A stretch of DNA of 64,000 nucleotides from positions 13,141 through 77,140 of the forward strand of contig JBDRKL010000009.1 in NCBI GenBank assembly GCA_043814055.1, given 5' to 3'. A program made the position numbers and the translations under genes. A model generated the notes under the pieces. The model saw nothing but the letters and a program-made list of their open reading frames with translations, searched no databases and had not been told where the DNA came from. This DNA comes from an archaeon. GTDB lineage: Archaea; Undinarchaeota; Undinarchaeia; Undinarchaeales; JBDRKL01. Of this stretch, positions 4,751 through 57,904 are shown in pieces; within the stretch, counting starts at the first letter, position 1, and every line of letters begins with the position of its first letter.

Positions 4751-6148
4751 ATGAGAAAAGCAGCCCTTTTGGTTTTAATTCTTGCACTCAGTTTAATTAG
4801 CCCTGCTCTTGCCCAGATTGAAGAGCCACACTGCGCGGTCTACTTCACTGGAATTGGCTGCCCGCATTGTGCAAACGCAGACCCTGTTGTTTTCGGCGAG
4901 CTCCTTGACAGCTGCGACGACTTGGTCGTGATTGAGTACGAGGTGTACCAGGACAGCGGGAACGCGGGGCTCATGTTCTACTATGACCAAGAGTTCAGCA
5001 GTGGCCTCAGCATCCCGCTTTTGATATTCGGCAAGGACAATATGATTGCCGGCGACAACCCGATAATCACTGAGTGCATCGCAGGAACAAATGCAAGGCA
5101 CCAGAGAATTTGCCCTGTAATAAATGGGGAAACTGAGTTTGAGAACCTTGACATCACAAAGCTCAGCGGCAAACCGAAAATCTGGACTAGCAGCGGAATA
5201 CTTCTTAGCTACGGAGACAAGGAAGGAGATTCTGAGCTTTTAAAATCACTCGTGCTTGGCGGGGATGTTGAAACACTCCTGAACGGCGAGGACTACAAAG
5301 TGGTTGAGCCGGTTGAAGTTGAACTCTCTGGCAGTTCTGTGGAGTTTGAGAACGCTGTGCAGATTGAGGACTGGGTGTTCCAGTGGAACGCAGGAGGTGC
5401 TGAAGGGGAAACTGGAGAGATAAATGACACTGGCGGCGGAGCAGGAGAAACTAAAGACCTCTCGCTCGCAACCATTTTCGCACTTGCCGCAGTTGACGCC
5501 ATAAACCCGTGCGCGCTCGCTGTGCTCACGCTTATGCTCATCGCGATAATCACTTACAACCCGAAGCGCAGGGAGAAGATACTCCACGCAGGGCTTGCGT
5601 TCGTGTTTTCAGTTTTTGTAATGTACTTGTTCTATGGCTTGGTGATAATCCGCTTCTTCCAGCTCGTTGACGCGCTCACTTCAGTCCGCTTAATGCTTTA
5701 CACAATCCTTGGCATAGTCGCGATTGCGCTCGGCCTGCTCAACATTAAGGACTATTTCAAATACAAGCCCGGCGGGCTCGCCACAGAAATGCCGATGAAG
5801 CTCAGGCCAATGGTCAAGAAGCTTACAGAGGGCGTGACATCTGCAAAGGGCGCTGCGCTCGTTGGCGTGTTTGTTACACTCTTCCTCCTGCCATGCACAA
5901 TCGGGCCTTATGTAATCGCGGGCGGGATGCTCTCCGCGCTTGAGCTTTTAAAAACCCTGCCGTGGCTCCTGATTTACAATTTCATATTCGTCCTTCCAAT
6001 GCTCGTGATAACACTTATTATCTACAGTGGAATAAAGAAAGTTGATGACGTTTCAGAGTGGAAGGACAATAATATAAAGAAACTGCACTTAATCGCAGGT
6101 ATTGTAATGCTCCTGCTGGGCATTGGAATGATTGGAGGATTCATATAA
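4751..6148 (+). CDS. Thioredoxin-fold (CPHC) ectodomain fused to a DsbD/CcdA-type membrane thiol-disulfide transporter
   Basis: Signal peptide, FTGIGCPHC motif, then TM helices containing DAINPCAL and LLPCTIGPY (the CcdA/DsbD Cys pair). Confidence 0.75.
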   Translation: MRKAALLVLILALSLISPALAQIEEPHCAVYFTGIGCPHCANADPVVFGELLDSCDDLVVIEYEVYQDSGNAGLMFYYDQEFSSGLSIPLLIFGKDNMIAGDNPIITECIAGTNARHQRICPVINGETEFENLDITKLSGKPKIWTSSGILLSYGDKEGDSELLKSLVLGGDVETLLNGEDYKVVEPVEVELSGSSVEFENAVQIEDWVFQWNAGGAEGETGEINDTGGGAGETKDLSLATIFALAAVDAINPCALAVLTLMLIAIITYNPKRREKILHAGLAFVFSVFVMYLFYGLVIIRFFQLVDALTSVRLMLYTILGIVAIALGLLNIKDYFKYKPGGLATEMPMKLRPMVKKLTEGVTSAKGAALVGVFVTLFLLPCTIGPYVIAGGMLSALELLKTLPWLLIYNFIFVLPMLVITLIIYSGIKKVDDVSEWKDNNIKKLHLIAGIVMLLLGIGMIGGFI

Positions 6149-11787: not shown

Positions 11788-12171
11788 ATGGATGAAATCG
11801 TTCACTACATGCAGAAACTCGGATTGAACCTTTACCAGAGCAGGGCAATGGTTGTTCTGCTCGCAACAGGCGAGGCAGAAGCGAAGCAGATATGCGAGTG
11901 CTCAGGAGTTCCGTACACCAAGATATACCAAATATTGAAACAGCTGGAAGACAAAGGACTGATTGAGTATAAACTCAACAGCCCGAGGACTTACAAGCCG
12001 CGCGGGAGAAAAGCCGTGCTGAACAAGCTCGTGAGAAAAGAGGCAAGGCGCGTGACATATTTGGAGAATGAAAAAGAGCGCCAACTTCAAAAGATAGGAA
12101 GGCTTAAGCTTGGGGCAACAAAAGGAATTGAGCAAGTACACCCAGTGTTTAATTCAGAACCAGGATTCTAG
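11788..12171 (+). CDS. TrmB-like wHTH transcriptional regulator
   Basis: MQKLGLNLYQSRAMVVLLATGEAEAKQICECSGVPYTKIYQILKQLEDKGLIEY matches the TrmB N-terminal domain pattern. Confidence 0.65.
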   Translation: MDEIVHYMQKLGLNLYQSRAMVVLLATGEAEAKQICECSGVPYTKIYQILKQLEDKGLIEYKLNSPRTYKPRGRKAVLNKLVRKEARRVTYLENEKERQLQKIGRLKLGATKGIEQVHPVFNSEPGF

Positions 12172-13667
12172 AAAACCTTGCTCAGGAACCACTCAGCATC
12201 AAATGACTTCATGTCCGCGTAGCCCTGCCCAGTGCCGAAGTAGAGGATTGGAGCGTCTGTAACGTATGAGACCGAAATGCACGAGCCGCCCTTTGGGTCG
12301 CAGTCAACCTTTGTTAAGACCGAGCCGTCTATTCCGACTGCCTCGTGGAATGCCTTTGCCTGGTCTGCTGCGTCGTTTCCTGTGAGAGCGTCGCCAACGA
12401 AGATTTTGAGGTCAGGCTTGTTAACGCGCACGACCTTCTTGAGCTCGTCCATTAGGTTTATGTTGGTTCCTGAGCGGCCTGCGGTGTCTGCGAGAACGAC
12501 GTCAATCTTTCTTGCCTTTGCGTGCGCTATCGCGTCGTAAATCACAGCTGCTGAGTCAGAGCCGCGCACCTGCTTGATGATTGGAACATTAAGGTTCTTT
12601 GCGTGAACGTCTAGCTGCTCAATTGCCGCGGCGCGGAACGTGTCCCCTGCCGCCATAACAACTGAAAGCCCAGCGTCCTGGAGCATTTTCGCGAACTTGC
12701 CTATGGTCATTGTCTTGCCAGTGCCGTTGAAGCCGAAAAAGACAATCACATAGGGTTTGTCCTTCTTGGCCTTGATGAGCTTGATTATGTCCGGCTGCTC
12801 CTTGGTGAGTATTTTTTGCAGCGAGTCCTTGATTGCAGATTCAATCATTTGCTCAGGGCTCTTGCTTGAGGTCTCCTCTTCCATCAGGCGCGCCTTGGTT
12901 TCGGCGGTTATTGCCTCTGTGACTTCTTTTGCAATGTCGTTCTCAAGCAGGAGTAGTTCAAGCTCCCAGAGTATTTTATCAAGATTTTTCTCTGAGATTT
13001 TTTTGCGGGTGATGGAAAGAAAACGCTTTTTTGGCTTTTCAGGTTCTTTATCAGGCTCTTTTGGCTTCCTGAATCTTCCGAAGAAACCTTTCTTTTTTGG
13101 TTCTCCGCCTGCTCGCGGAGGTAGAGCGGAGGCATTCGCCCCTGGCGAAGCCTCTATCTTGGTTTCTTCTTTTACTTCGGGTTCAATTTCAGGTTCTGGA
13201 GTTGGTTCCTCTTCAACAATTGGTTCTGGCTCGGGTTCTTCTTCAGATTCCTCCTCTACCTCTGGTTCAGGCTCATCCTCAATTTCAGGTTCAGGCTTGG
13301 ACTCCGACTCGGATTCAGGTTCAGCAACTGGCTCTAGCTCTTCAGGTTTTTCAGGTTCTGGCTCAAGCTCGACCTTAACTTCAGGCTTGGGTTCTTCAAC
13401 CACCAGCTCAAGTTCCGGCTCAACCTGCCCCGGCTCAAGCTCGGCTTCAACCTCTTTTAGAATTTCGTCTTCAACCGCAGCCGCCTTTTTCTTTTCTTTC
13501 TTCGACTTCGTTTCCTTCTTCTTGGCTATTGGCGGTTGGCTCTTGGCTTTTGGCGCTTTAGGAACTTCCTCAACAACTTCGTCTACTGGCTCCTTTACCT
13601 CAACCTCAACTTCAGCTGAGGCCTTGGACAAAAAGCCCTTGAGCTTCTTCTTGAGATTTTCAAACAT
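12168..13667 (-). CDS. ftsY: SRP receptor FtsY with an N-terminal extension of about 200 aa rich in acidic Glu/Pro
   Basis: GFNGTGKTMT (G1), DTAGR, TKVD motifs in an NG domain. The N-terminal E/P/K low-complexity region contains repeat copy A. Confidence 0.9.
   Translation of the reverse strand: MFENLKKKLKGFLSKASAEVEVEVKEPVDEVVEEVPKAPKAKSQPPIAKKKETKSKKEKKKAAAVEDEILKEVEAELEPGQVEPELELVVEEPKPEVKVELEPEPEKPEELEPVAEPESESESKPEPEIEDEPEPEVEEESEEEPEPEPIVEEEPTPEPEIEPEVKEETKIEASPGANASALPPRAGGEPKKKGFFGRFRKPKEPDKEPEKPKKRFLSITRKKISEKNLDKILWELELLLLENDIAKEVTEAITAETKARLMEEETSSKSPEQMIESAIKDSLQKILTKEQPDIIKLIKAKKDKPYVIVFFGFNGTGKTMTIGKFAKMLQDAGLSVVMAAGDTFRAAAIEQLDVHAKNLNVPIIKQVRGSDSAAVIYDAIAHAKARKIDVVLADTAGRSGTNINLMDELKKVVRVNKPDLKIFVGDALTGNDAADQAKAFHEAVGIDGSVLTKVDCDPKGGSCISVSYVTDAPILYFGTGQGYADMKSFDAEWFLSKVF
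13103..13152 (-). repeat. PE-1 copy A: 50-bp two-hairpin repeat, in-frame inside ftsY
   Basis: Minus strand reads ggcttcgccaggggcgaatgcctccgctctacctccgcgagcaggcggag. It matches copy B at 43/50 and copy C at 42/50. It encodes PGANASALPPRAGGE. Confidence 0.8.
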
Positions 13668-13697
13668 AGAATATGATTAGAACTCAGGCGTTAATAA

Positions 13698-14120
13698 CTA
13701 TTTCTTCTTCGCCTGCATCGTCTGTAGGTATGCCTGAAGCTCCGGCTCAAGCGCGCCAAGGCGCTCGCCCATCTTCTTTATCTGCCCCTCAAGCTTTGCC
13801 CTGCCGTCTGTAAGTGTCTCCAGCTGCGTTCCGATTGACTCCACAGCGTCGCTGACCTTTTTCTCAACCACAACACCAGCGCCGACGCCAGTTAAAACAT
13901 AGCCCTTGTCCTTGAGGTCTGCCATAACAAATGAGTTGCCGCCAAGCGGCACCATAATCTCAGAGTCCTTTGCGCCCTTCAGGCTCTCTATGGTGTTCTT
14001 CGCAGCCAGAAGCTCCATCTCGACTCCGCCCATCGCGTTTAGTTCCTGAATAAGACTTTCGATTTGGGTTTTTAAAATAGTGTATTCAGCGTACTTTTGT
14101 TGGAATTCTTCTTCCTTCAT
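13698..14120 (-). CDS. pfdA: Prefoldin alpha subunit
   Basis: 140 aa, coiled coil / beta hairpins / coiled coil, in the canonical position between rplX and ftsY. Confidence 0.8.
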   Translation of the reverse strand: MKEEEFQQKYAEYTILKTQIESLIQELNAMGGVEMELLAAKNTIESLKGAKDSEIMVPLGGNSFVMADLKDKGYVLTGVGAGVVVEKKVSDAVESIGTQLETLTDGRAKLEGQIKKMGERLGALEPELQAYLQTMQAKKK

Positions 14121-14479
14121 TCTCCGGCTGCTCCCGGAGGGTGAGCGGAGGCATTCGCATCCGGCGAAGCCGCTTTATTATCTCCTTTTTCCTTAGGCGC
14201 ACCTTCGTGCGCTGCTTCTTTTTCCCTGACTGAGGTGCCTTCTGCTTTTAACATCCCTTTCTTTGCCTTTGCCGGCAGAACTTTCTTTGCTTCTGGCTTG
14301 AACTCCTCAACTTTCTCAATCTTTATTTGAGCTCGCTTTATCCCGTGATTTGAGCCAACCAATGAATAGACCTTGTCAAGCGCGCGTGCTTCTTTAAGTT
14401 CGGTAACTTCCTTGGTAAAAATCTGCTTATTTCCACGCTGTACAAAACTTCCTATGATTCTAAAATGTTTAACACTCAT
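14117..14479 (-). CDS. rplX: Ribosomal protein LX (L18Ae/L20A family) with a C-terminal extension
   Basis: MSVKHFRIIGSFVQRGNKQIFTKEVTELKEARALDKVYSLVGSNHGIKRAQIKIEKVEEF followed by a tail of about 45 aa. The last 17 codons are repeat copy B. Confidence 0.75.
   Translation of the reverse strand: MSVKHFRIIGSFVQRGNKQIFTKEVTELKEARALDKVYSLVGSNHGIKRAQIKIEKVEEFKPEAKKVLPAKAKKGMLKAEGTSVREKEAAHEGAPKEKGDNKAASPDANASAHPPGAAGE
14122..14171 (-). repeat. PE-1 copy B: forms the C-terminal codons of rplX
   Basis: Minus strand reads ggcttcgccggatgcgaatgcctccgctcaccctccgggagcagccggag. It encodes PDANASAHPPGAAGE and ends 2 nt before the rplX stop / pfdA start overlap. Confidence 0.8.
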
Positions 14480-14489
14480 TTTGAATTTT

Positions 14490-14555
14490 CCTCCACTTCA
14501 TCAGCTTTAAAATAAACACGAAGCTGATTGACCTGCGTTATTGCTTTGCGTCTCA
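14490..14555 (-). promoter_or_regulatory. E-element copy E1 (conserved leader cassette) upstream of rplX
   Basis: Sense strand: gagacgcaaagcaa-N15-CAGCTTcgtgtttattttAAAGCTG-atgaagtggaggaaaattcaaaATG. Confidence 0.6.
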
Positions 14556-14561
14556 TTATAT

Positions 14562-18557: not shown

Positions 18558-19379
18558 ATGATGGAATCATACTACGAAAAACCAGGATTTAAGCTATATC
18601 ACTCGGATTCGTTTGAACTTTTGAAGGATTTGCCAGAGAATTCTGTAGATATGATTTTTGCCGATCCACCATATTTCCTTTCAAACGGCAGTTTCACATG
18701 TCAAAATGGAAAAATGGTTAGCGTAAAGAAAGGAAATTGGGACATGGGCAATGGCACAAAACAAGATTTTGATTTTCATTTGGATTGGCTAAACGCTTGC
18801 AGGAGAGTCCTAAAGCCAAATGGAACAATTTGGATTAGCGGAACATACCACTCAATTTACCAGTGCGGCTTTGCACTACAAATGAATAATTTCCACATTT
18901 TGAATGATATTGCCTGGTTTAAGCCTAACGCCTCACCTAATTTGAGCTGCAGATTCTTTACCGCTAGCCACGAAACCCTAATTTGGGCTCGCAAGAATAA
19001 GGAAGCAAAGCACACTTTTAATTATGATATTACTAAAACCGGAAACTGGCCTGAAGACCAGTTAAAAAAAGAGGGGTTACAGATGCGCTCTGTTTGGTCA
19101 ATACCAACGCCCAAGCCACAGGAGAAAACCTTCGGCAAACACCCAACGCAAAAGTCATTGGATCTGCTGAGAAGAATTGTATTAGCAAGCACTAACAAGG
19201 GCGATTTGATTCTTGATCCTTTTACAGGAAGCTCCACAACAGGTCTGGCTGCCCATATGTATGGAAGGGATTTTATTGGAATTGACAATGAACAAAAATA
19301 TCTAGATCTATCCATTAAACGCTTTGAAGAACTGGAAAATAATCTAAAAAAAGAGAAAACCACCGGCGGTTTGATATGA
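18558..19379 (+). CDS. N6-adenine DNA methyltransferase, DpnA (M2.DpnII)-like, beta class
   Basis: SVDMIFADPPYFLSNG...LKPNGTIWISG...PNLSCRFFTASHETLIWARK...GKHPTQKSLDLLRRIVLASTNKGDLILDPFTGSSTTG is near-collinear with DpnA as I recall it. Confidence 0.85.
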   Translation: MMESYYEKPGFKLYHSDSFELLKDLPENSVDMIFADPPYFLSNGSFTCQNGKMVSVKKGNWDMGNGTKQDFDFHLDWLNACRRVLKPNGTIWISGTYHSIYQCGFALQMNNFHILNDIAWFKPNASPNLSCRFFTASHETLIWARKNKEAKHTFNYDITKTGNWPEDQLKKEGLQMRSVWSIPTPKPQEKTFGKHPTQKSLDLLRRIVLASTNKGDLILDPFTGSSTTGLAAHMYGRDFIGIDNEQKYLDLSIKRFEELENNLKKEKTTGGLI

Positions 19380-20293
19380 AAAAAATTGAATTTTATGAAA
19401 AGACGCTAAAATGCAACACAGCGGATGAAGTTTTTAACCACATTATTTCAACTTTTAAACCAAGCATACTTACATGGTCTTATTTTGTGAATTGGGATAA
19501 GGTTTTTCAGAACACGAAAGATATTGAGATAGGGCTTAACAAACTAAATTATCTAATCGGCAAAGAGGATTTTGATAAAGAATTCAGATATCTAATAAAA
19601 AAAGAGGCAGAGCTTCTAAAAATCATTCCAGCACTGGTTGTGAGGGATGGTCAGAACACTTTAAAATTCAAAATTTTGGTTGATTACAGTCAAAAAAAGA
19701 TGGTGTATGAAGAATATGACTTTAACAAAGATACTTTAACAGACGAGAATATTGAAAAGTGCCTGACTTTTGTTAAGGAAACTGGCTTGAAAAAATTGAT
19801 TACCTCCGGAAGTATCAAAAATTTAGTGGATTATATGATTGGGGTTGAGGCAGGATTGGACAGCAATGGACGAAAAAACCGTTCCGGCAGTGCAATGGAA
19901 AACATTGTTGAAATGTTCATAAAAGACATTTGCAACAGGAAGAACTTCAGATATTTAAGGCAGGCAGATGCAAAAAAGATCAAAGAAGAGTTTGGATACG
20001 ATGTCCCGGTTGACAAGTCATCAAGAAGGTATGATTTTGTAATTGACACTGGAAAAGAGCTTGTCCTTTTTGAAACAAACTTTTACGGCGGCGGTGGCTC
20101 AAAACTAAAATCAACAGCAGGCGAGTACAGAAATCTGTTTGACATACTTGAAGACAAATACAAATTTATTTGGATTACAGACGGACTTGGCTGGAAAACA
20201 ACTCAAAAACCGTTGCGAGAAACATTTGAGCATAATGATTATCTGTTTAATTTGGATATGCTGGAAAAAAAGGTATTAGATGTAGTGTTGTAG
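19376..20293 (+). CDS. Type II restriction endonuclease, DpnII/MboI (GATC) family
   Basis: LVDYMIGVEAGLDSNGRKNRSGSAMENIVE...RYDFVI...LFETNFYGGGGSKLKSTAGEY...FIWITDGLGWKTTQKPLRETF matches the R.DpnII pattern. 4-bp overlap with the methyltransferase gene. Confidence 0.85.
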   Translation: MKKIEFYEKTLKCNTADEVFNHIISTFKPSILTWSYFVNWDKVFQNTKDIEIGLNKLNYLIGKEDFDKEFRYLIKKEAELLKIIPALVVRDGQNTLKFKILVDYSQKKMVYEEYDFNKDTLTDENIEKCLTFVKETGLKKLITSGSIKNLVDYMIGVEAGLDSNGRKNRSGSAMENIVEMFIKDICNRKNFRYLRQADAKKIKEEFGYDVPVDKSSRRYDFVIDTGKELVLFETNFYGGGGSKLKSTAGEYRNLFDILEDKYKFIWITDGLGWKTTQKPLRETFEHNDYLFNLDMLEKKVLDVVL

Positions 20294-20304
20294 GAGAGTA
20301 AGAG

Positions 20305-20376
20305 TGGACCCGGCCCGGATTGAACGGGCGACCTCTGCCATGTGAGGGCAGTGTCATACCACTAGACCACGGGTCC
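20305..20376 (-). tRNA. tRNA-Val (CAC), no intron, CCA not encoded
   Basis: GGACCCGTGGTCTAGTGGTATGACACTGCCCTCACATGGCAGAGGTCGCCCGTTCAATCCGGGCCGGGTCCA folds as a cloverleaf with anticodon loop CTCACAT. Confidence 0.85.
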
Positions 20377-32578: not shown

Positions 32579-32624
32579 AATTATTGATGGTCGAGGTTAT
32601 ATAAAAGGATTTCTTTGAGATAGG

Positions 32625-32674
32625 GGCTTCGCCGAAGGTGAATGCCCCAGCTTTACCTCCGCAAGCAGGCGGAG
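32625..32674 (+). repeat. PE-1 copy C, intergenic, inverted relative to copies A and B
   Basis: ggcttcgccgaaggtgaatgccccagctttacctccgcaagcaggcggag, lying between two TATA-like boxes upstream of pyrG. Confidence 0.8.
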
Positions 32675-32685
32675 ATATAAAAGAC

Positions 32686-36714: not shown

Positions 36715-36836
36715 AAGCTATAAAAACTATAGCTTACATAGTTTTGTTGCATCCTTTCCGAAAGGGGAAGGGATGCTGTTCAAAAGTTAATTTCGCAAAA
36801 CGGTGACCAAAGGCAACCAGATTGCTTTTGTAAGGT

Positions 36837-36894
36837 GGCTTCGCGAACGCAGTGAGCGAATGCCGCCTAAAGTGTCAACTGCTTTTGCAGTTGT
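36837..36894 (+). repeat. Degenerate PE-1-like two-hairpin unit (copy D) abutting the 5' end of tRNA-Ser
   Basis: ggcttcgcgaacgcagtgagcgaatgccgcc followed by the perfect hairpin caactgc-tttt-gcagttg. Confidence 0.45.
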
Positions 36895-37556: not shown

Positions 37557-37704
37557 TGGGCCCGTGGTCTAGTGGCTATGACGTCTCCCTTACAACCCTT
37601 TTGCTTCGCAAAAGCGTTGACGGAAAAGAAACCGTCTTCGCGGCGATTGGAGCACGAGGGAAAGAACGGAGAAGTTCACAGGTTCGACTCCTGTTGGGCC
37701 CACC
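37557..37704 (+). tRNA. tRNA-Val (UAC) with a 72-nt intron at the canonical 37/38 site (37594..37665), CCA encoded
   Basis: GGGCCCGTGGTCTAGTGGCTATGACGTCTCCCTTACA[intron]CGGAGAAGTTCACAGGTTCGACTCCTGTTGGGCCCACCA. Confidence 0.8.
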
Positions 37705-37732
37705 AATCTTTATAGTGGCAAGAAACATAGCC

Positions 37733-37790
37733 ACTTCGCGACTTGATGGCGCGAATGTGGCTAGACCTACGTCCGCGGTCAGGCGGACGT
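37733..37790 (+). repeat. Degenerate PE-1-like two-hairpin unit (copy F) downstream of tRNA-Val
   Basis: cttcgcg-acttgatgg-cgcgaatg ... acgtccgc-ggtcag-gcggacgt. The second hairpin parallels ctccgc-gagcag-gcggag of copy A. Confidence 0.45.
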
Positions 37791-37813
37791 TTGAGTCCTG
37801 TTGGACCCACTAA
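37789..37813 (+). pseudogene. Orphan copy of the tRNA-Val(UAC) 3' end (T-arm 3' half plus acceptor)
   Basis: cgtttgagtcctgttggacccacta against ggttcgactcctgttgggcccacca gives 20/25 identical. No matching 5' half is present. Confidence 0.55.
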
Positions 37814-37820
37814 TACTCAA

Positions 37821-38163: not shown

Positions 38164-38319
38164 CATTAGAGCATAGAATACTCGGCACGGGCTCGTCCGC
38201 AACCTTTTTCTATGCTCTGTTGAAGTGATTACTCTGGTTAAAAAAGCTTGACCAAAAACACAGTCCCGCGCCAAGAGCTTGATGCAGCGGGACTACCAGG
38301 CAAATTGAGCGCCACCATA

Positions 38320-38348: not shown

Positions 38349-38627
38349 CCCGGTACAGGCTAGGCCGGGAGAGTAGCAGTCTCCCTTTCTCAAATCTGCT
38401 TTAGGAGGGCTGAATGCCGGTGTGAGTTGCAGTATTGGGGGAGTCGTCTTGGGCTCTGGCGTCGAAGCCTCGTCCTGCGGGACTGACTGCCCTGCTAACC
38501 GGGTCAGATGGGGAACCAAGCAGCCCTACACAGGGCGCGTTGGTGCTCGCGGGTTCGCGGGGTGGAGCCTCTGCTCAAGGTCAGCGGCTTTCTTAGTATT
38601 GCAGCGAGCTCCGGATGCCTGTGCCAC
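38349..38627 (+). ncRNA. Signal recognition particle RNA (archaeal 7S)
   Basis: The 5' GGTACAGGCTAGGCCGGG pairs with the 3' CCGGATGCCTGTGCC. The internal CCGGGTCAGATGGGGAACCAAGCAGCC resembles the conserved helix-8 SRP54-binding motif. An oligo-T run (38632..38636) follows. The ends are approximate, about +/-5 nt. Confidence 0.75.
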
Positions 38628-38741
38628 AAACTTTTTATTGATTATATTTGTGAAAAAAGCTTGACCAAAAAACTCGCTTCAGCACACAGCGCTTACGCGC
38701 CGTGTGTCTCTACATGCTTCGCATGTAGACCGCTCGGCAGT

Positions 38742-41603: not shown

Positions 41604-41704
41604 AGCCCCGTAGTGTAGCGGCCAAGCACTCCGGCCTTTGACCTGTGTTTGATAAAAACTCAGGAAGACAGCCGGTAACGGCAGTTCGAATCTGCCCGGG
41701 GCTA
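41604..41704 (+). tRNA. tRNA-Gln (UUG) with a 28-nt intron at 37/38 (41642..41669)
   Basis: AGCCCCGTAGTGTAGCGGCCAAGCACTCCGGCCTTTGA[intron]AGCCGGTAACGGCAGTTCGAATCTGCCCGGGGCTA. Confidence 0.8.
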
Positions 41705-41705
41705 C

Positions 41706-43064
41706 TCAAAATTTAGTGGTTAGTATTTTTTGCTTTTTTGCATAGAGAGTGATAAGAAAGTTTAATTTTTGTTTCCATTTATGTGATTTAAAATCAGCAG
41801 GGTATATTTCTATAAGTTTGCTTTGAAACCCTAGTTTTTGATACAGAGGTAACTTAACCTCAATAGTTTTGATGTCATAAAATTCCTTTCCAGCAAGCCC
41901 CCAAATTTCAACCCAGTGCTGTCCTATTTTAAAATCCGTACGAGATTTTGGGTCTGTTTTAGATTTGGATATTCTCACCCCAACTTGATGGGAAATGCCA
42001 TTATAAAATAGCCAATTGTCAACAACACGCTCATAAGTAGAATTAACCATATGGCCATCTTTACATACTAATTTCTCTGTGTAACCGAATAGAGAGGCTC
42101 GTATAGGGATATTATATTCTTTTAGCCACCTTATTACAGAAGTAGAAGCAACTCCACAGGATAATGCAATCTCATAAGAAGATAGTTTATCATTTAAATA
42201 CCATCCAATAAGCTCAGTTCTAGTAGGCTTATATGAATTAAATAATCGGGTCTCACTAGAGGTTCTTGATTCAACCCTATATCTTTTTAATAAGTTTGAA
42301 ATGGACACATCACTAATGTTGTACATATTTGCTATCTGGCATATAGAGAATCCCTTTTTAACATATAGGTCTTGCAATTCTTGTTTAATGGGGAACTTTG
42401 CGTCTTTTTTGAGATTTCGGGAACCCCCTTTTCGGATAGGTATACCATATTTTTTTAACCATCTAGCAACACTGCCCTTGGTAACTCTGCAGATTTTTGC
42501 AATTTTAATAGTTGATTGATGTTCATCTAGATACCACTGTTCTAATTCTTTTTTTGAAGGCACATACGATTTAAAAAGACGAGTTTCAATACCTTTTCTT
42601 GCTGTTATCCCATATTTTTTCAGATAATCGGCAATCGTAGATGGATCGATATTACATAGTTTTCCTATCTTCAAAACAGATAAACCTTGAACTAAATACC
42701 AATCTTGAAGTTCTTCTTGAGTAGGCATATGAGCATTTGATTTAAGATTTGCTTCAGAAGCAGAACGGATAGAGACTTTGTATTTTTTTAATAGGCGTCC
42801 AATAACTGAACGGGATACACCATATTTTTTTGCTATTATTAGAGGATGTACTCTTTGTGTCAGATACATTGCCTCTAATTCACTTTTGGACGGAAGAACA
42901 ACCCCTTCGTTTAAACGTGCCTCAGAGGGCGTCCTTACTAAATTTCTTTTTTTTAGAAATTGCCAAACAAAACCCTGAGAAACATTTAAGATTTTTGCAA
43001 TCTCGTGTGTTGTTTTTCTTTTAGTTATATATAAGTCGATAATTTGTTTCTCATCAATTTCCAT
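41706..43064 (-). CDS. Six tandem HTH modules plus a C-terminal PD-(D/E)xK-like nuclease domain (homing-endonuclease-like)
   Basis: Six repeats of about 57 aa of the form P-x-x-x-EL-x-x-WY...S...IA..[YC].V[ST]...[IV]..[WL]LKKY.I..R. The C-terminus STYERVVDNWLFYNGISH...RTDFKIGQHWVEIWG resembles the Vsr/DUF559-type D...E-x-K core. Strongly AT-rich by eye. Its stop lies 2 nt from the tRNA-Gln 3' end. Confidence 0.6.
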   Translation of the reverse strand: MEIDEKQIIDLYITKRKTTHEIAKILNVSQGFVWQFLKKRNLVRTPSEARLNEGVVLPSKSELEAMYLTQRVHPLIIAKKYGVSRSVIGRLLKKYKVSIRSASEANLKSNAHMPTQEELQDWYLVQGLSVLKIGKLCNIDPSTIADYLKKYGITARKGIETRLFKSYVPSKKELEQWYLDEHQSTIKIAKICRVTKGSVARWLKKYGIPIRKGGSRNLKKDAKFPIKQELQDLYVKKGFSICQIANMYNISDVSISNLLKRYRVESRTSSETRLFNSYKPTRTELIGWYLNDKLSSYEIALSCGVASTSVIRWLKEYNIPIRASLFGYTEKLVCKDGHMVNSTYERVVDNWLFYNGISHQVGVRISKSKTDPKSRTDFKIGQHWVEIWGLAGKEFYDIKTIEVKLPLYQKLGFQSKLIEIYPADFKSHKWKQKLNFLITLYAKKQKILTTKF

Positions 43065-56698: not shown

Positions 56699-57904
56699 TT
56701 ACATAACCATCATGCTGCCAAACATTTGGGTTATAAAGTACCGCACAAGGAAGAAAATAGTAACCCCGCAGATTACGAAAATTGGAGCGTACTGGAGGCC
56801 TTTCTTCTCGTCGCCATTCTTGATTAAACCATAGAGGAGCGAAGCAAAGAACGTAATTATGATGATTGCAGTCAGTGCAAAGTAGAATAGGAAGTCAGGA
56901 CCAATTGAGGATGTAAAGCCCATAAGCCCCATGCCGCTAGCCGATGCGTCTGTAGACATATCACCAAACCCAATTGCCTCAGTCATCTTGGTAATCATTT
57001 CAACGAAGAATGTGGATATGCCAAGCAAAAGCGGGGCACCTCCGAGTGATGCAAACGCAACGAACATAGTGTACATAGAGGTGTTGGTTGCCATCTCTTT
57101 TTCAAGAATTAATAGTGATTGTATTTCTTCAGCGGTTTCGTCCAGCAATTTTGCAAGCTCTCCGCCGGATTCCATTCCCTCTACTATCAGGCGAACGGTT
57201 CTCCCGAGTATAGGGGAGCGAACGTGCTCACTCATTATGAGAAACGCCTCTGTGAGAGGAGTTCCACCCAGAGATTCTGAACCGACCTTTTTTATTTCCT
57301 TTGCGAACTCGCCAAATTCTTCGCGGGCAGACATCCATATGGCGCGGTCAGGCGTCATTCCCGCCCGTATGTTTGCAGCTATGAGCTGCAGGGCGCTCGG
57401 GAGTATTTTTTCAATCTCAATTGCCCGCTTGTTTACTTTTAGGGAGAGCATTGTAAACGAGCCGCCGAATATGCTGACAAACACAATGGGAACAGCGATT
57501 AGTGCGTAGAACATTGGGAGATATCCCAACATAAAAAGAGCCAACGGCAATGCAATTGCCATCACTATGGCTAGGATTATGCGCTTTGCAACCCAGATAG
57601 AGCCTGAACCTGAGAGCCCAGCGTACACCAGTAGCTTGGAAGCACTAACACCCCATTTTGTTGGGAGCATGCGGCTAAATTTCTTGTAGCGATTCTTGGT
57701 TTTTTCCGCGTTCTTCACCTTTGGCATTTCCTTTGAGGCTTCCTTTAGGATTTCCTTTGAGGCTTCCTTGGGCATTTCCTTCAGCACCCTCTTTAGAATT
57801 TCCTTTGATTTTTCCTTGGGCATTTCCTTCAGAGCCCCCTTTAGGATTTCCTTTGCTTTTTCCTTTGGCGGTTCCTTGGAGATTTTCTTTGCTTTTTTCA
57901 TCAC
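56699..57904 (-). CDS. Type IV pilus platform protein (T2SS-F / TadC / FlaJ-like) with an N-terminal KEILKE repeat region
   Basis: T2SSF-like segment LPSALQLIAANIRAGMTPDRAI, multiple TM helices, and N-terminal PKE[KA]SKEILK repeats. Confidence 0.75.
   Translation of the reverse strand: MMKKAKKISKEPPKEKAKEILKGALKEMPKEKSKEILKRVLKEMPKEASKEILKEASKEMPKVKNAEKTKNRYKKFSRMLPTKWGVSASKLLVYAGLSGSGSIWVAKRIILAIVMAIALPLALFMLGYLPMFYALIAVPIVFVSIFGGSFTMLSLKVNKRAIEIEKILPSALQLIAANIRAGMTPDRAIWMSAREEFGEFAKEIKKVGSESLGGTPLTEAFLIMSEHVRSPILGRTVRLIVEGMESGGELAKLLDETAEEIQSLLILEKEMATNTSMYTMFVAFASLGGAPLLLGISTFFVEMITKMTEAIGFGDMSTDASASGMGLMGFTSSIGPDFLFYFALTAIIIITFFASLLYGLIKNGDEKKGLQYAPIFVICGVTIFFLVRYFITQMFGSMMVM
57690..57900. 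repeat. Imperfect tandem DNA repeats encoding the KEILKE-type peptide repeats
   Basis: Units such as ggcatttccttcag.../tttaggatttcctttg... recur. Three spurious overlapping ORFs appear in the track here (one on the minus strand, two on the plus strand). Confidence 0.7.

What the first reader, a model, noticed from the sequence alone, without database searches (positions are those of the whole stretch)
13103..14171. A 50-bp two-hairpin repeat (PE-1) sits in-frame inside ftsY and rplX and also occurs intergenically
Three 50-bp copies align over their whole length.
- Copy A, 13103..13152, inside ftsY.
- Copy B, 14122..14171, forming the last codons of rplX.
- Copy C, 32625..32674, intergenic and inverted.

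A matches B at 43/50 and the reverse complement of A matches C at 42/50. The consensus is GGCTTCGCC-loop-GCGAATGCC...CTCCGC-N6-GCGGAG, which forms two short hairpins.

In the two genes the element is read as PGANASALPPRAGGE (ftsY) and PDANASAHPPGAAGE (rplX). These peptides fall at a domain junction and at a C-terminus, which are positions that tolerate insertions.

Two degenerate units with the same TTCGC...GCGAATG first hairpin and a second perfect hairpin flank tRNA genes (36837..36894 and 37733..37790).

This pattern recalls the Rickettsia palindromic elements, which insert in-frame into ORFs. I do not know of this having been described for an archaeon of this kind.
Basis: seen in the sequence. 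Interest (0 to 1): 0.7.

Follow-up and report, generated by a model that had tools for sequence, protein, structure and literature searches.

The report
Hairpin repeat inserted in archaeal genes
A short G+C-rich DNA repeat that folds into two hairpins has been inserted, in frame, into two essential genes of a tiny DPANN archaeon, much like the palindromic elements of Rickettsia; its relatives in other genomes sit next to tRNA genes beside a copied tRNA end, which hints at how it spreads.

Summary
There are three 65-70-nt copies: A in ftsY, B at the end of rplX (LX/L18Ae), and C between genes and inverted. They are about 85% alike and match a covariance model at E 1e-24 to 1e-27.

All three look like insertions. 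The closest available relative (FtsY 73% identical, same gene order) lacks the element at all three sites. Fourteen FtsY homologues lack the peptide.

Differences between A and B fall in the hairpin loops and the linker, and one is a compensatory stem change. They do not follow codon positions. The constraint or ancestry therefore lies in the nucleic-acid structure, not in a peptide motif.

The same module occurs in other low-G+C archaeal contigs (archaeon UBA543 and marine metagenomes). There it lies downstream of tRNA genes. In four copies a third helix, or terminal inverted repeat, encloses it. In five of the six module-bearing sites outside the window, a copy of the last 13-23 nt of the preceding tRNA follows it directly. 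Window unit E (37716-37815) has this same layout.

Best reading: a lineage-specific, non-autonomous palindromic repeat that behaves like REP and RPE elements. Its in-ORF copies survive because they lie in disordered tails. The mobility mechanism, the genome-wide copy number and any RNA function are unresolved. No archaeal description was found in the searched library.

The parts
13095..13168 (-). PE-1 copy A (HP1 + linker + HP2), read in frame in ftsY as (E)ASPGANASALPPRAGGE, residues 172-189
   Evidence: (75 bits); absent from the closest FtsY P0002 and 13 other homologues
14114..14187 (-). PE-1 copy B, the last 17 codons of rplX (LX/L18Ae). HP2 ends 1-2 nt before the ATGA overlap of the rplX stop and the pfdA start. 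Its HP2 stem is the CCGG/CCGG variant.
   Evidence: (69 bits); the relative's LX ends ...ATAEEKKE; the same HP2 stem variant occurs in the L001 tRNA-Ser module
32609..32682 (+). PE-1 copy C, intergenic and antisense to both flanking genes. ATATAAAAG lies at its right edge and again 17 nt upstream of HP1, a possible 9-bp target duplication of the pyrG TATA region.
   Evidence: 71 bits; empty syntenic spacer in L001; flank repeat p about 0.03
37716..37793 (+). Module E: diverged HP1 (GCCACTTCGCG...CGCGAATGTGGC, same bulged T) plus HP2 (CGTCCGC-GGTCAG-GCGGACG), 10 nt downstream of the annotated tRNA-Val(UAC) end (37705)
   Evidence: 60 bits
37792..37815 (+). Tail: TTTGAGTCCTGTTGGACCCACTAA, a copy of the T-loop/T-stem 3' strand, acceptor 3' strand, discriminator and CCA region of the preceding tRNA-Val(UAC)
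   Evidence: 13-mer with 1 mismatch; p<0.0005
37558..37705 (+). tRNA-Val(UAC) with a 72-nt intron and encoded CCA, the gene whose 3' end is duplicated after module E
36821..36894 (+). Module D: HP1 with the family stem (GGCTTCGCG...GCGAATGCC) plus an unrelated second hairpin (CAACTGC-TTTT-GCAGTTG). It ends 1 nt before tRNA-Ser(GCU) and is part of a roughly 93-nt insertion relative to L001.
   Evidence: (19 bits, E 3e-5)
12168..13667 (-). ftsY (host gene of A): acidic A domain, SRP54_N 221-283, GTPase 306-498
14117..14479 (-). rplX (ribosomal protein LX/L18Ae, host gene of B); Pfam domain at residues 3-58, followed by a low-complexity tail

Best explanation
PE-1 is a lineage-specific family of short (about 55-70 bp), G+C-rich, two-hairpin interspersed repeats. 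It is non-autonomous, mobile or formerly mobile DNA that behaves like bacterial REP and RPE elements.

Shown:
- After this lineage split from its nearest sequenced relative, copies were added at three or more sites in this 64-kb window.
- Two of them landed inside coding sequence, in an orientation and frame without stop codons.
- Those sites lie in low-complexity segments: the FtsY A-domain just before the N domain, and the C-terminal tail of LX.
- The family also exists in other low-G+C archaeal genomes. There it sits next to tRNA genes and is followed by a displaced copy of the tRNA 3' end.

Inferred:
- Because the ORFs stay open, the element is simply translated as a roughly 17-residue Ala/Pro/Gly/Ser-rich peptide.
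- tRNA gene ends are the usual home of the family. Insertion there uses a site-specific mechanism that targets the T-loop region, either integrase-like or hairpin-recognising.
- PE-1 is a trimmed derivative (HP1+HP2 only) that has spread to secondary sites.

Unknown: the enzyme, the exact element ends and the target duplication.
For: **Real repeat:**

**Insertion polarity:**
- Clean gap over the element in the closest FtsY, and absence in 13 other homologues.
- DNA-level gap in the L001 ftsY.
- Different LX tail in L001. LX is only 62-101 aa in three further relatives.
- Empty pyrG spacer in L001.
- D lies within a roughly 93-nt insertion relative to L001.

**Constraint at the nucleic-acid level:**
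- A and B differ by 1 synonymous and 6 non-synonymous nucleotide changes, read. All lie in the HP1 loop, the linker, or as a compensatory C-G to G-C swap in HP2.
- Six of 17 stem pairs show double compensatory changes across nine family members. 93.5% of cells are paired against 34-46% in slid controls.

**Stop codons:** all three sense frames and one antisense frame of the hairpin core (HP1 through HP2) are stop-free in A, B and C; the stops seen in sense frames 1 and 2 fall in the flanks. Each of the other two antisense frames carries a stop in at least one copy. Read-through is therefore unsurprising.

**Family in other genomes:** L085/L133/L142, L124/L146, L137 and L145/L147 score 69-87 bits.

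**tRNA linkage:**
- 6 of 14 tRNAs in these low-G+C loci are followed within 130 nt by a copy of their own 3' end: five detected by the 13-mer screen and tRNA-Leu in L085, which has a 1-nt deletion, seen in the pairwise alignment.
- Flank duplication tests give p<0.0005.

**Subfamilies:** the HP2 stem variant of B (CCTCCGG/CCGGAGG) is the one in the relative's tRNA-Ser module. This indicates separate source subfamilies rather than change in place.

**Terminal inverted repeat or closing helix:** found in four copies, with compensatory change.

**Uneven density:** five members in this window against none in 57 kb of three related genomes.
Against: - Only 64 kb of the source genome could be examined, so 'interspersed, many copies' is not demonstrated.
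- No transposase, integrase or casposase was found among the window ORFs scanned. Only 10 of about 70 ORFs were scanned.
- No clear target-site duplication for A, B, D or L147.
- PE-1 copies lack terminal inverted repeats.
- 10 of 11 family members are in sense orientation to local transcription. Sequence, not only structure, is 85-95% conserved between modules of different genomes. Both points fit a functional RNA at least as well.
- The nearest relative is distant (73% FtsY identity). Loss in that lineage cannot be formally excluded for C and D.
Confidence: 0.6

Rival explanations
1. The module is primarily a functional structured RNA, either a cis-acting element or a small RNA co-transcribed with tRNAs and mRNAs. 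It forms a three-way junction (P0, HP1 with a bulged U, HP2) that acts as a protein-binding, processing, stabilising or termination signal. The copies in ORFs and operons are recruited or tolerated instances. REP elements show that 'selfish repeat' and 'RNA function' are not exclusive.
For: - Covariation in HP1, HP2 and P0.
- 10 of 11 members are sense to the local transcript.
- High sequence conservation of loops and linker between modules at different tRNAs and in different genomes, while the spacers cannot be aligned.
- Position is fixed relative to tRNA ends. D ends 1 nt before tRNA-Ser, and the other modules follow tRNAs.
- B sits exactly at the rplX/pfdA junction of a ribosomal-protein operon.
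- Other G+C-rich hairpins flank the SRP RNA gene.
Against: - No Rfam family matches, even at E<=10.
- Copy C is antisense to both neighbours.
- Copy A is in the middle of a coding region, where an RNA signal has no obvious role.
- The closest relative lacks the element at all three sites, so no conserved function is attached to those loci.
- HP1 has no K-turn or C/D-box features on inspection. Hairpin covariation is equally expected for single-stranded DNA or cruciform recognition.
Confidence: 0.25
2. The tRNA-linked modules are scars, or miniature derivatives, of integrative elements that recombine in the T-loop region of tRNA genes through a tyrosine-recombinase-type att site. The intact tRNA is the regenerated target. 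The tail is the displaced original 3' fragment. HP1/HP2 are the conserved arm next to the att core. PE-1 copies in ORFs are secondary-site integrations or fragments moved by recombination.
For: - A regenerated tRNA plus a direct-repeat 3' fragment is the textbook signature of islands integrated in tRNA genes (Islander, PMC4383910).
- The duplication always starts at the T-loop/T-stem 3' strand. It runs through the 3' end and 0-10 nt beyond, as att identity blocks do.
- Orientation relative to the tRNA is constant.
Against: - The interval between the tRNA and the fragment is only 70-115 bp. It has no integrase gene and is far smaller than any described island.
- The same module is joined to the ends of at least four different tRNA species (Gln UUG, Gln CUG, Leu, Arg, plus a diverged one at Val). 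Each would need its own tRNA-specific att core.
- The TTCGG after HP2 pairs with the leader and changes with it in L147. It therefore belongs to the module, not to a T-loop crossover site.
- No match in IMG/VR viral contigs, phage records or plasmids.
- A, B, C and L147 have no tRNA-like flanks.
Confidence: 0.2
3. The element is removed from the ftsY and rplX mRNAs, so the proteins never contain the peptide. The route would be the archaeal tRNA-splicing endonuclease plus RtcB, or a hairpin-triggered excision like the 'SOS splicing' of transposons in animals.
For: Archaea have the enzymes (own knowledge), and an analogous excision of inverted-repeat transposons from mRNA exists in animals (PMC12779559, found). 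The element forms very stable hairpins.
Against: - The predicted folds contain no bulge-helix-bulge motif. There is only a single bulged U in HP1.
- Both copies keep an open frame through the whole element. That is unnecessary if it were spliced out.
- The intron of the window's tRNA-Val is not significantly similar to the module (p=0.15).
Confidence: 0.03
4. The similarity reflects a conserved peptide motif, or it is an assembly artefact.
For: A and B encode similar peptides in the same frame.
Against: - Copy C is non-coding and inverted.
- Nucleotide identity (86%) exceeds peptide identity (about 72%). Substitutions follow the hairpin layout, not codon positions.
- Orthologues lack the peptide.
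- The copies differ by 14-16% and lie in unique syntenic flanks. Repeat-induced misassembly would give identical copies at contig breaks.
Confidence: 0.01

Closest known systems
Rickettsia palindromic elements (RPEs; Ogata et al. 2000, own knowledge; RPE-4 and RPE-6 are classed with CGTC-tagged REPs in PMC3733652)
   Same: A hairpin-forming repeat found between genes and inside ORFs, in frame. It adds a short peptide to otherwise conserved proteins, and orthologues in relatives lack it. The host has a small genome and probably depends on another organism.
   Different: The host is an archaeon. The unit is shorter (about 55-70 bp against about 100-150 bp). It has two different hairpins in tandem rather than one long palindrome. 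It is related to tRNA-linked modules that carry a copy of the tRNA 3' end. No sequence relationship was tested.
REP / CGTC-tagged palindromic repeats of bacteria (Di Nocera et al. 2013, PMC3733652)
   Same: Short G+C-rich imperfect palindromes, sometimes inside coding regions. The second hairpin starts with CGTC, TGTC or CCTC, the same three variants that paper lists for the tag. No dedicated transposase sits next to them.
   Different: Here the tetranucleotide is part of the stem. Stems are 6-7 bp with a 6-nt loop, against 8-9 bp with a 4-5-nt loop there. There are no A/T first stem positions, no CCA tail on the hairpin and no head-to-head dimers. That study reports these repeats from five bacterial phyla only.
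MITEs (miniature inverted-repeat transposable elements) of archaea and bacteria
   Same: Small non-coding interspersed repeat. The UBA543-type copies have 5-7-bp inverted termini that change together. There is one candidate 9-bp target duplication at copy C.
   Different: PE-1 copies A to C lack inverted termini. There is no consistent target duplication and no autonomous partner was found. The element is G+C-rich with internal hairpins rather than having long TIRs.
Genomic islands integrated in tRNA genes (Islander signature, PMC4383910; T-loop crossover class of Williams 2002, own knowledge)
   Same: An intact tRNA followed, in direct orientation, by a displaced fragment that starts in the T-loop/T-stem region and runs past the 3' end.
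   Different: The 'island' is 70-115 bp with no integrase or cargo. The same module is attached to the ends of several different tRNAs.
IS200/IS605-derived hairpin elements (PATEs, REP/RAYT systems; own knowledge)
   Same: Imperfect hairpins with an extrahelical base (the bulged T in HP1). There is no obvious target duplication, and orientation is strongly biased.
   Different: The two hairpins are unrelated in sequence. No Y1 transposase or TnpB was seen in the window. No conserved tetranucleotide target was defined.

Membership tests
Rickettsia palindromic elements (RPE) | Repeat inserted in frame in ORFs, with the ORF kept open | tested here: met
   A in ftsY and B in rplX, both open through the element
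Rickettsia palindromic elements (RPE) | Orthologues in related genomes lack the inserted segment | tested here: met
Rickettsia palindromic elements (RPE) | Sequence homology to one of the RPE families and many copies genome-wide | not tested
   No RPE sequences were compared. Only 64 kb of the source genome was available (3 full and 2 diverged copies).
CGTC-tagged REP (PMC3733652) | Terminal CGTC tetranucleotide (variants TGTC, CCTC) | tested here: met
   HP2 begins with CGTC (E, UBA543, L147), TGTC (L124, L137) or CCTC (A, B, C, L001)
CGTC-tagged REP (PMC3733652) | Stem of 8-9 bp with A/T in the first two positions, loop of 4-5 nt, short CCA tail, head-to-head dimers | tested here: not met
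   HP2 stem is 6-7 bp and all G/C at the base, with a 6-nt loop. HP1 and HP2 are different hairpins in tandem.
MITE | Terminal inverted repeats | tested here: inconclusive
   A 5-7-bp inverted terminus or closing helix is present in 4 UBA543-type copies (p 0.015-0.04 each, with compensatory change). It is absent in PE-1 A/B/C and L124.
MITE | Target-site duplication directly flanking the element | tested here: inconclusive
   Only C has a candidate (ATATAAAAG, p about 0.03). A, B, D and L147 have none.
MITE | Related autonomous element encoding a transposase | not testable with these tools
   None among the window ORFs scanned.
tRNA-gene integrated island (tyrosine-integrase att signature) | Regenerated tRNA plus a displaced 3' fragment in direct orientation | tested here: met
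   Window E, L001 Ser, L085 Gln and Leu, L124 Arg, L137 Gln
tRNA-gene integrated island (tyrosine-integrase att signature) | Integrase gene and kilobase-scale cargo between the two repeats | tested here: not met
   The intervals are 70-115 bp and non-coding
Archaeal bulge-helix-bulge intron | Two 3-nt bulges separated by a 4-bp helix at the boundaries | tested here: not met
   Minimum-free-energy and centroid folds show two plain hairpins, one with a 1-nt bulge
Any Rfam RNA family | Covariance-model match | tested here: not met
   No match at gathering score or at E<=10 on A, on E plus tail, or on the two UBA543 modules

The most novel reading that the evidence does not exclude
The two-hairpin unit may be the core of a previously undescribed archaeal element that targets tRNA genes. 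It would be a roughly 85-nt three-way-junction module, closed by co-varying termini, that is always followed by a copy of the last 13-23 nt of the adjacent tRNA.

Two readings of that layout remain open:
- A miniature element that inserts at the T-loop region and rebuilds or duplicates the tRNA end without carrying an integrase.
- A scaffold-plus-tail RNA whose 3' tail matches the neighbouring tRNA gene, analogous to the guide-bearing RNAs of TnpB elements or to the tRNA-homing crRNAs of CRISPR-associated transposons.

PE-1 in ftsY and rplX would then be its stripped-down, dispersing derivative.
Probability: 0.15. Interest if true: 0.8.

Novelty: new variant of a known kind. Interest (0 to 1): 0.58.

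Why it matters
Hairpin repeats that enter genes in frame are a textbook curiosity of Rickettsia and a few other bacteria. Finding the same behaviour in a DPANN archaeon with a very small genome would show that this mode of protein 'decoration' by selfish DNA crosses domains. It would also show that even housekeeping genes of minimal genomes, here the SRP receptor and a ribosomal protein, can absorb it.

The link to tRNA genes gives a concrete handle on how such elements move in archaea. That link has three parts: a displaced copy of the tRNA 3' end, constant orientation, and co-varying termini. No enzyme has yet been tied to REP-like repeats in archaea.

There is also a practical point. These modules create partial tRNA fragments and extend ORFs, and both can mislead automatic annotation of MAGs.

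Tried and rejected
1. **Collection scan with the first-hairpin pattern (genome contigs).** Only L085 (archaeon UBA543) was informative.

2. **Protein-level search for other proteins carrying the PE-1 peptide.** The query was too short, and a concatenation of five element reading frames gave nothing at E<=10.

3. **Fetching the rest of the source contig.** The exact FtsY is not on record in the contig index.

4. **Viral, phage and plasmid origin.** Three IMG/VR pattern scans gave only chance hits in a high-G+C QueC-like gene. BLAST against phages and plasmids gave nothing relevant.

5. **Is the spacer between the tRNA and the module a decayed second tRNA copy?**
   - Local alignments were not significant, apart from a 15-nt promoter-like repeat in UBA543 Gln.
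   - Colinear seed chains were significant only for UBA543 Gln (p=0.02) and window E (p=0.009). The combined p was 0.15.
   - I treat this as suggestive only.

6. **Is the module derived from the tRNA-Val(UAC) intron?** Not significant, p=0.15.

7. **K-turn, C/D-box or H/ACA features in HP1.** None on inspection, and no Rfam match.

8. **Target duplications for A and B.** The purine-rich coding flanks give only low-complexity matches.

9. **Candidate mobilising enzyme.**
   - The 452-aa multi-HTH ORF that abuts tRNA-Gln has no recognisable catalytic domain.
   - Its AlphaFold model was too poor to use, pLDDT 40.

10. **Three more FtsY neighbourhoods of relatives.** They contain no module.
Full report
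**1. The observation**

The alignable unit is slightly longer than 50 bp:
- A, 13095-13160 on the minus strand.
- B, 14114-14179 on the minus strand.
- C, 32617-32682 on the plus strand.

A search for the first-hairpin pattern with up to three mismatches finds exactly these three sites, against 0.07 expected by chance. A covariance model built later scores them 69-75 bits, E 2e-24 to 8e-27.

Each copy folds into two hairpins. HP1 is GGCTTCGCC-loop-GGCGAA-T-GCC with a single bulged T. HP2 is CCTCCGC-GAGCAG-GCGGAG.

The window has about 47% G+C. The element has about 60%.

**2. Gene context**

The minus strand carries rpl39e, rpl31e, rplX (LX/L18Ae, 120 aa), pfdA and ftsY (499 aa) in one direction.

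- Copy A encodes FtsY residues 172-189. This is in the acidic low-complexity A domain, 32 residues before the SRP54_N domain (221-283).
- Copy B encodes LX residues 104-120, which is 45 residues after the end of the Pfam domain (3-58). Its second hairpin ends 1-2 nt before the ATGA in which the rplX stop overlaps the pfdA start.
- Copy C lies between the stop codon of a small signal-peptide ORF and the pyrG promoter. It is antisense to both.

A and B are read in the same element frame. All three sense frames and one antisense frame of the hairpin core (HP1 through HP2) have no stop codon in any of the three copies; the stops that one search shows in sense frames 1 and 2 lie in the flanks. Each of the other two antisense frames has a stop in at least one copy. 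An open frame through the element is therefore not remarkable in itself.

**3. Insertion, not a conserved motif**

FtsY homologues were collected. The source is an NCBI MAG labelled only 'archaeon'. The closest homologue, P0002, is 73% identical overall.

In the alignment, P0002 has a clean gap over exactly EASPGANASALPPRAGGEP, with good alignment on both sides (...KKKGLFGRFRKPK). None of the 13 other homologues has the segment.

The contig that encodes P0002 (L001) has the same gene order. On it:
- The ftsY DNA shows the same gap.
- LX has a different K/E-rich tail.
- The pyrG upstream spacer has no element.

LX is only 62-101 aa in three more distant relatives.

Between A and B the nucleotide differences are 1 synonymous and 6 non-synonymous. 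All fall in the HP1 loop, the linker, or as a compensatory C-G to G-C exchange in the HP2 stem (read). Nucleotide identity (86%) is higher than peptide identity (about 72%). Together with the non-coding, inverted copy C, this excludes a peptide motif. The 14-16% divergence between copies and their unique syntenic flanks exclude an assembly artefact.

**4. The family outside the window**

A pattern scan of reference genomes was mostly noise, but it hit archaeon UBA543 (L085). A stricter two-hairpin pattern scanned over metagenome contigs gave 32 stretches. Eight of them, with 36-39% G+C, are true members:
- L133 and L142, which are the same sequence as UBA543.
- L124 and L146.
- L137.
- L145 and L147.

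A nine-sequence alignment supports both hairpins. 93.5% of cells are paired, against 34-46% when partners are slid. Six of 17 pairs have changes on both sides.

Model R1 finds only A, B, C and E strongly in the window, plus D weakly. It finds no extra copies in the related loci and none in 57 kb around ftsY in three further relatives.

Rfam has no matching family, even at E<=10. Viral contigs, phage records and plasmids have nothing related.

That this clade belongs to or near Undinarchaeota rests on one homologue's annotation (P0019) and on my recollection of the GTDB placement of UBA543. NCBI lists UBA543 as unclassified Archaea.

**5.

In UBA543, tRNA-Gln and tRNA-Leu are each followed by the same five parts:
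- a conserved leader (GAACCAATTTCAAAACA);
- HP1;
- a linker (TCGTGCCAT);
- HP2 (CGTCCGC-GGCAAG-GCGGACG);
- TTCGGA plus a copy of the T-stem 3' strand, acceptor 3' strand, discriminator and CCA of that same tRNA.

The same layout follows four other tRNAs:
- tRNA-Arg(CCU) in L124.
- tRNA-Gln(CUG) in L137, where the copy extends into the trailer.
- tRNA-Ser(GCU) in the closest relative L001. There the first hairpin is different, and the second is CCTCCGG-ATTTTG-CCGGAGG, the stem variant of copy B.
- The intron-containing tRNA-Val(UAC) in the window itself, as unit E plus the tail 37792-37815.

Of 14 tRNAs in these low-G+C loci, 6 have such a downstream copy. Five were detected by the 13-mer screen; the sixth, tRNA-Leu in L085, carries a 1-nt deletion and was found in the pairwise alignment. 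One more has an upstream copy of its 5' end. The flank duplication is highly significant for the tRNA-linked copies (p<0.0005) and absent for A, B, D and L147. Most of these loci were chosen through the module pattern, so the fraction is biased. In the two unbiased sources, the window and L001, it is 2 of 6.

Unit D is part of a roughly 93-nt insertion, relative to L001, that ends 1 nt before tRNA-Ser. L147 shows that the module also occurs between two protein genes with no tRNA nearby.

**6. A third helix or inverted termini**

I folded the tRNA-Gln, spacer, module and tail together. The fold shows the leader CCGAAC pairing with the GTTCGG that follows HP2.

The same pairing occurs at the same register in:
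- UBA543 Leu (TTGAAC/GTTCGG);
- L137 (TCTGAAC/GTTCGGA);
- L147 (GTGAA/TTCAC), which has two compensatory changes.

Each is significant at p 0.015-0.04 against shuffled leaders. The pairing is absent in L124 and in PE-1 A, B and C, and it is weak in E.

So the 'T-loop-like' TTCGG belongs to the module. The tRNA-derived part is the 13-17 nt after it. This feature can be read in two ways: as the closing stem of a three-way-junction RNA, or as short terminal inverted repeats of a DNA element. The data do not decide between them.

**7. What it most likely is**

The three empty sites in the nearest relative, the uneven density between genomes, the existence of stem subfamilies, and the presence of copies in coding, intergenic and tRNA-flanking positions fit best with a non-autonomous interspersed repeat. 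It behaves like REP and RPE elements.

The steps, marked by status:
- Shown: copies entered new sites after the split from the L001 lineage.
- Inferred: those that fell in low-complexity protein segments in an open frame persisted and are translated.
- Inferred: tRNA gene ends are the usual residence of the family. The displaced tRNA fragment points to a site-specific insertion process at the T-loop region.
- Unknown: the enzyme.

Ten of the roughly 70 window ORFs were scanned against Pfam and none is a recognisable transposase or integrase. A 452-aa protein with five or six tandem HTH repeats abuts tRNA-Gln, but its C-terminal domain could not be assigned.

I put this reading at 0.6.

**8. 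Rivals**

- *Functional RNA module (0.25).* Favoured by the orientation bias (10 of 11 in sense), the sequence conservation between genomes and the fixed position at tRNA ends. Disfavoured by antisense copy C, the mid-ORF copy A and the empty orthologous sites. It is not exclusive with selfish spread.
- *Integrase att scar or mini-island (0.2), for the tRNA-linked form.* It matches the known signature of a regenerated tRNA plus a displaced fragment (PMC4383910). But the interval is only 70-115 bp, and the same module is joined to several different tRNA ends.
- *Removal from the mRNA (0.03).* Unsupported, because there is no bulge-helix-bulge motif.
- *Peptide motif or artefact.* Refuted.

**9. 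Comparison with what is known**

RPEs are the closest in behaviour. CGTC-tagged REPs share the CGTC/TGTC/CCTC head of HP2, but not stem length, loop size, tail or dimer organisation (PMC3733652). That study reports them from five bacterial phyla only.

Full-text searches found no description of such repeats in Undinarchaeota or DPANN, and no in-frame palindromic elements in archaea. The library is incomplete, so this is absence of evidence only.

**10. Verdict**

I class it as a new variant of a known kind: REP/RPE-like behaviour, in an archaeon, with a distinctive tRNA-linked parent form.

Interest is moderate to high. A specialist would not be astonished by a hairpin repeat in an ORF. The archaeal setting and the module-plus-tRNA-tail architecture are unexpected, and they can be tested directly on the full MAGs.

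Noticed in passing
window 38226-38258 and 38639-38671; hairpins at about 38260-38295 and 38676-38740: The SRP RNA gene (38353-38624) is bracketed by an 85%-identical 33-nt direct repeat (TGATTA...AAAAAAGCTTGACCAAAAA). Each repeat is followed by G+C-rich hairpins. One of them (AGTCCCGC...GCGGGACT) resembles the first hairpin of the L001 tRNA-Ser module. This may be another stable-RNA gene flanked by hairpin and repeat modules.
   Followed up: partly
window 41706-43064 (-), next to tRNA-Gln 41604-41705 (+): A 452-aa ORF whose stop abuts the 3' end of tRNA-Gln. It has five or six tandem homeodomain-like HTH repeats of about 58 aa and an unassigned C-terminal domain of about 130 aa. There is no Pfam or PDB match, and the AlphaFold model was too poor to use. 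It could be a sequence-specific DNA-binding enzyme of a mobile element.
   Followed up: partly
window 18558-20293 (+), next to tRNA-Val(CAC) 20304-20376 (-): A DpnII-type restriction endonuclease and an N6/N4 DNA methylase sit directly beside a tRNA gene. The local G+C is lower (0.42). This is a typical position for horizontally acquired DNA.
   Followed up: partly
L001 5016-5082, upstream of tRNA-Val(CAC) 5083-5155: A copy of the tRNA 5' end (GGACCCGTGGTTT), followed by a hairpin (CATTCAG...CTGAATG), lies 66 nt upstream of the gene. This is the mirror image of the 3'-tail arrangement.
   Followed up: partly
window 37558-37705 and 41604-41705: tRNA-Val(UAC) has a 72-nt intron and tRNA-Gln(UUG) has a 28-nt intron. 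tRNA-Ser and tRNA-Val(UAC) encode their CCA ends, while tRNA-Val(CAC) and tRNA-Gln do not.
   Followed up: partly
window 14480-14561; L001, L158-L160: In many archaea an eIF6 gene lies between rpl31e and rplX (own knowledge). Here and in the relatives the two genes are adjacent. L31e (179 aa), LX (120 aa) and FtsY all carry long K/E/A/P-rich low-complexity extensions.
   Followed up: no
L158 12842-17326 and L159 12381-14965: In two relatives, ftsY is followed by conjugation-type genes (TrbC/T4SS pilin, PrgI/TraC-like, AAA_10/TraG-like ATPase). This suggests an integrated conjugative element in DPANN genomes.
   Followed up: no
window 57694-57901 within ORF 56699-57904 (-): A 12-nt periodic tandem repeat of 13 registers encodes a repetitive K/E-rich N-terminal region (KEILK/KEMPK-like) of a 401-aa protein.
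   Followed up: no
window 37710-37726: The spacer between tRNA-Val(UAC) and module E contains TAGTGGC (the tRNA's D-loop) and AAGAAAC (part of its intron) in colinear order (p=0.009). In UBA543 the tRNA-Gln spacer repeats 15 nt of the gene's own upstream region (p=0.02). The tail may be the remnant of a decayed second tRNA copy, but the combined test was not significant.
   Followed up: yes
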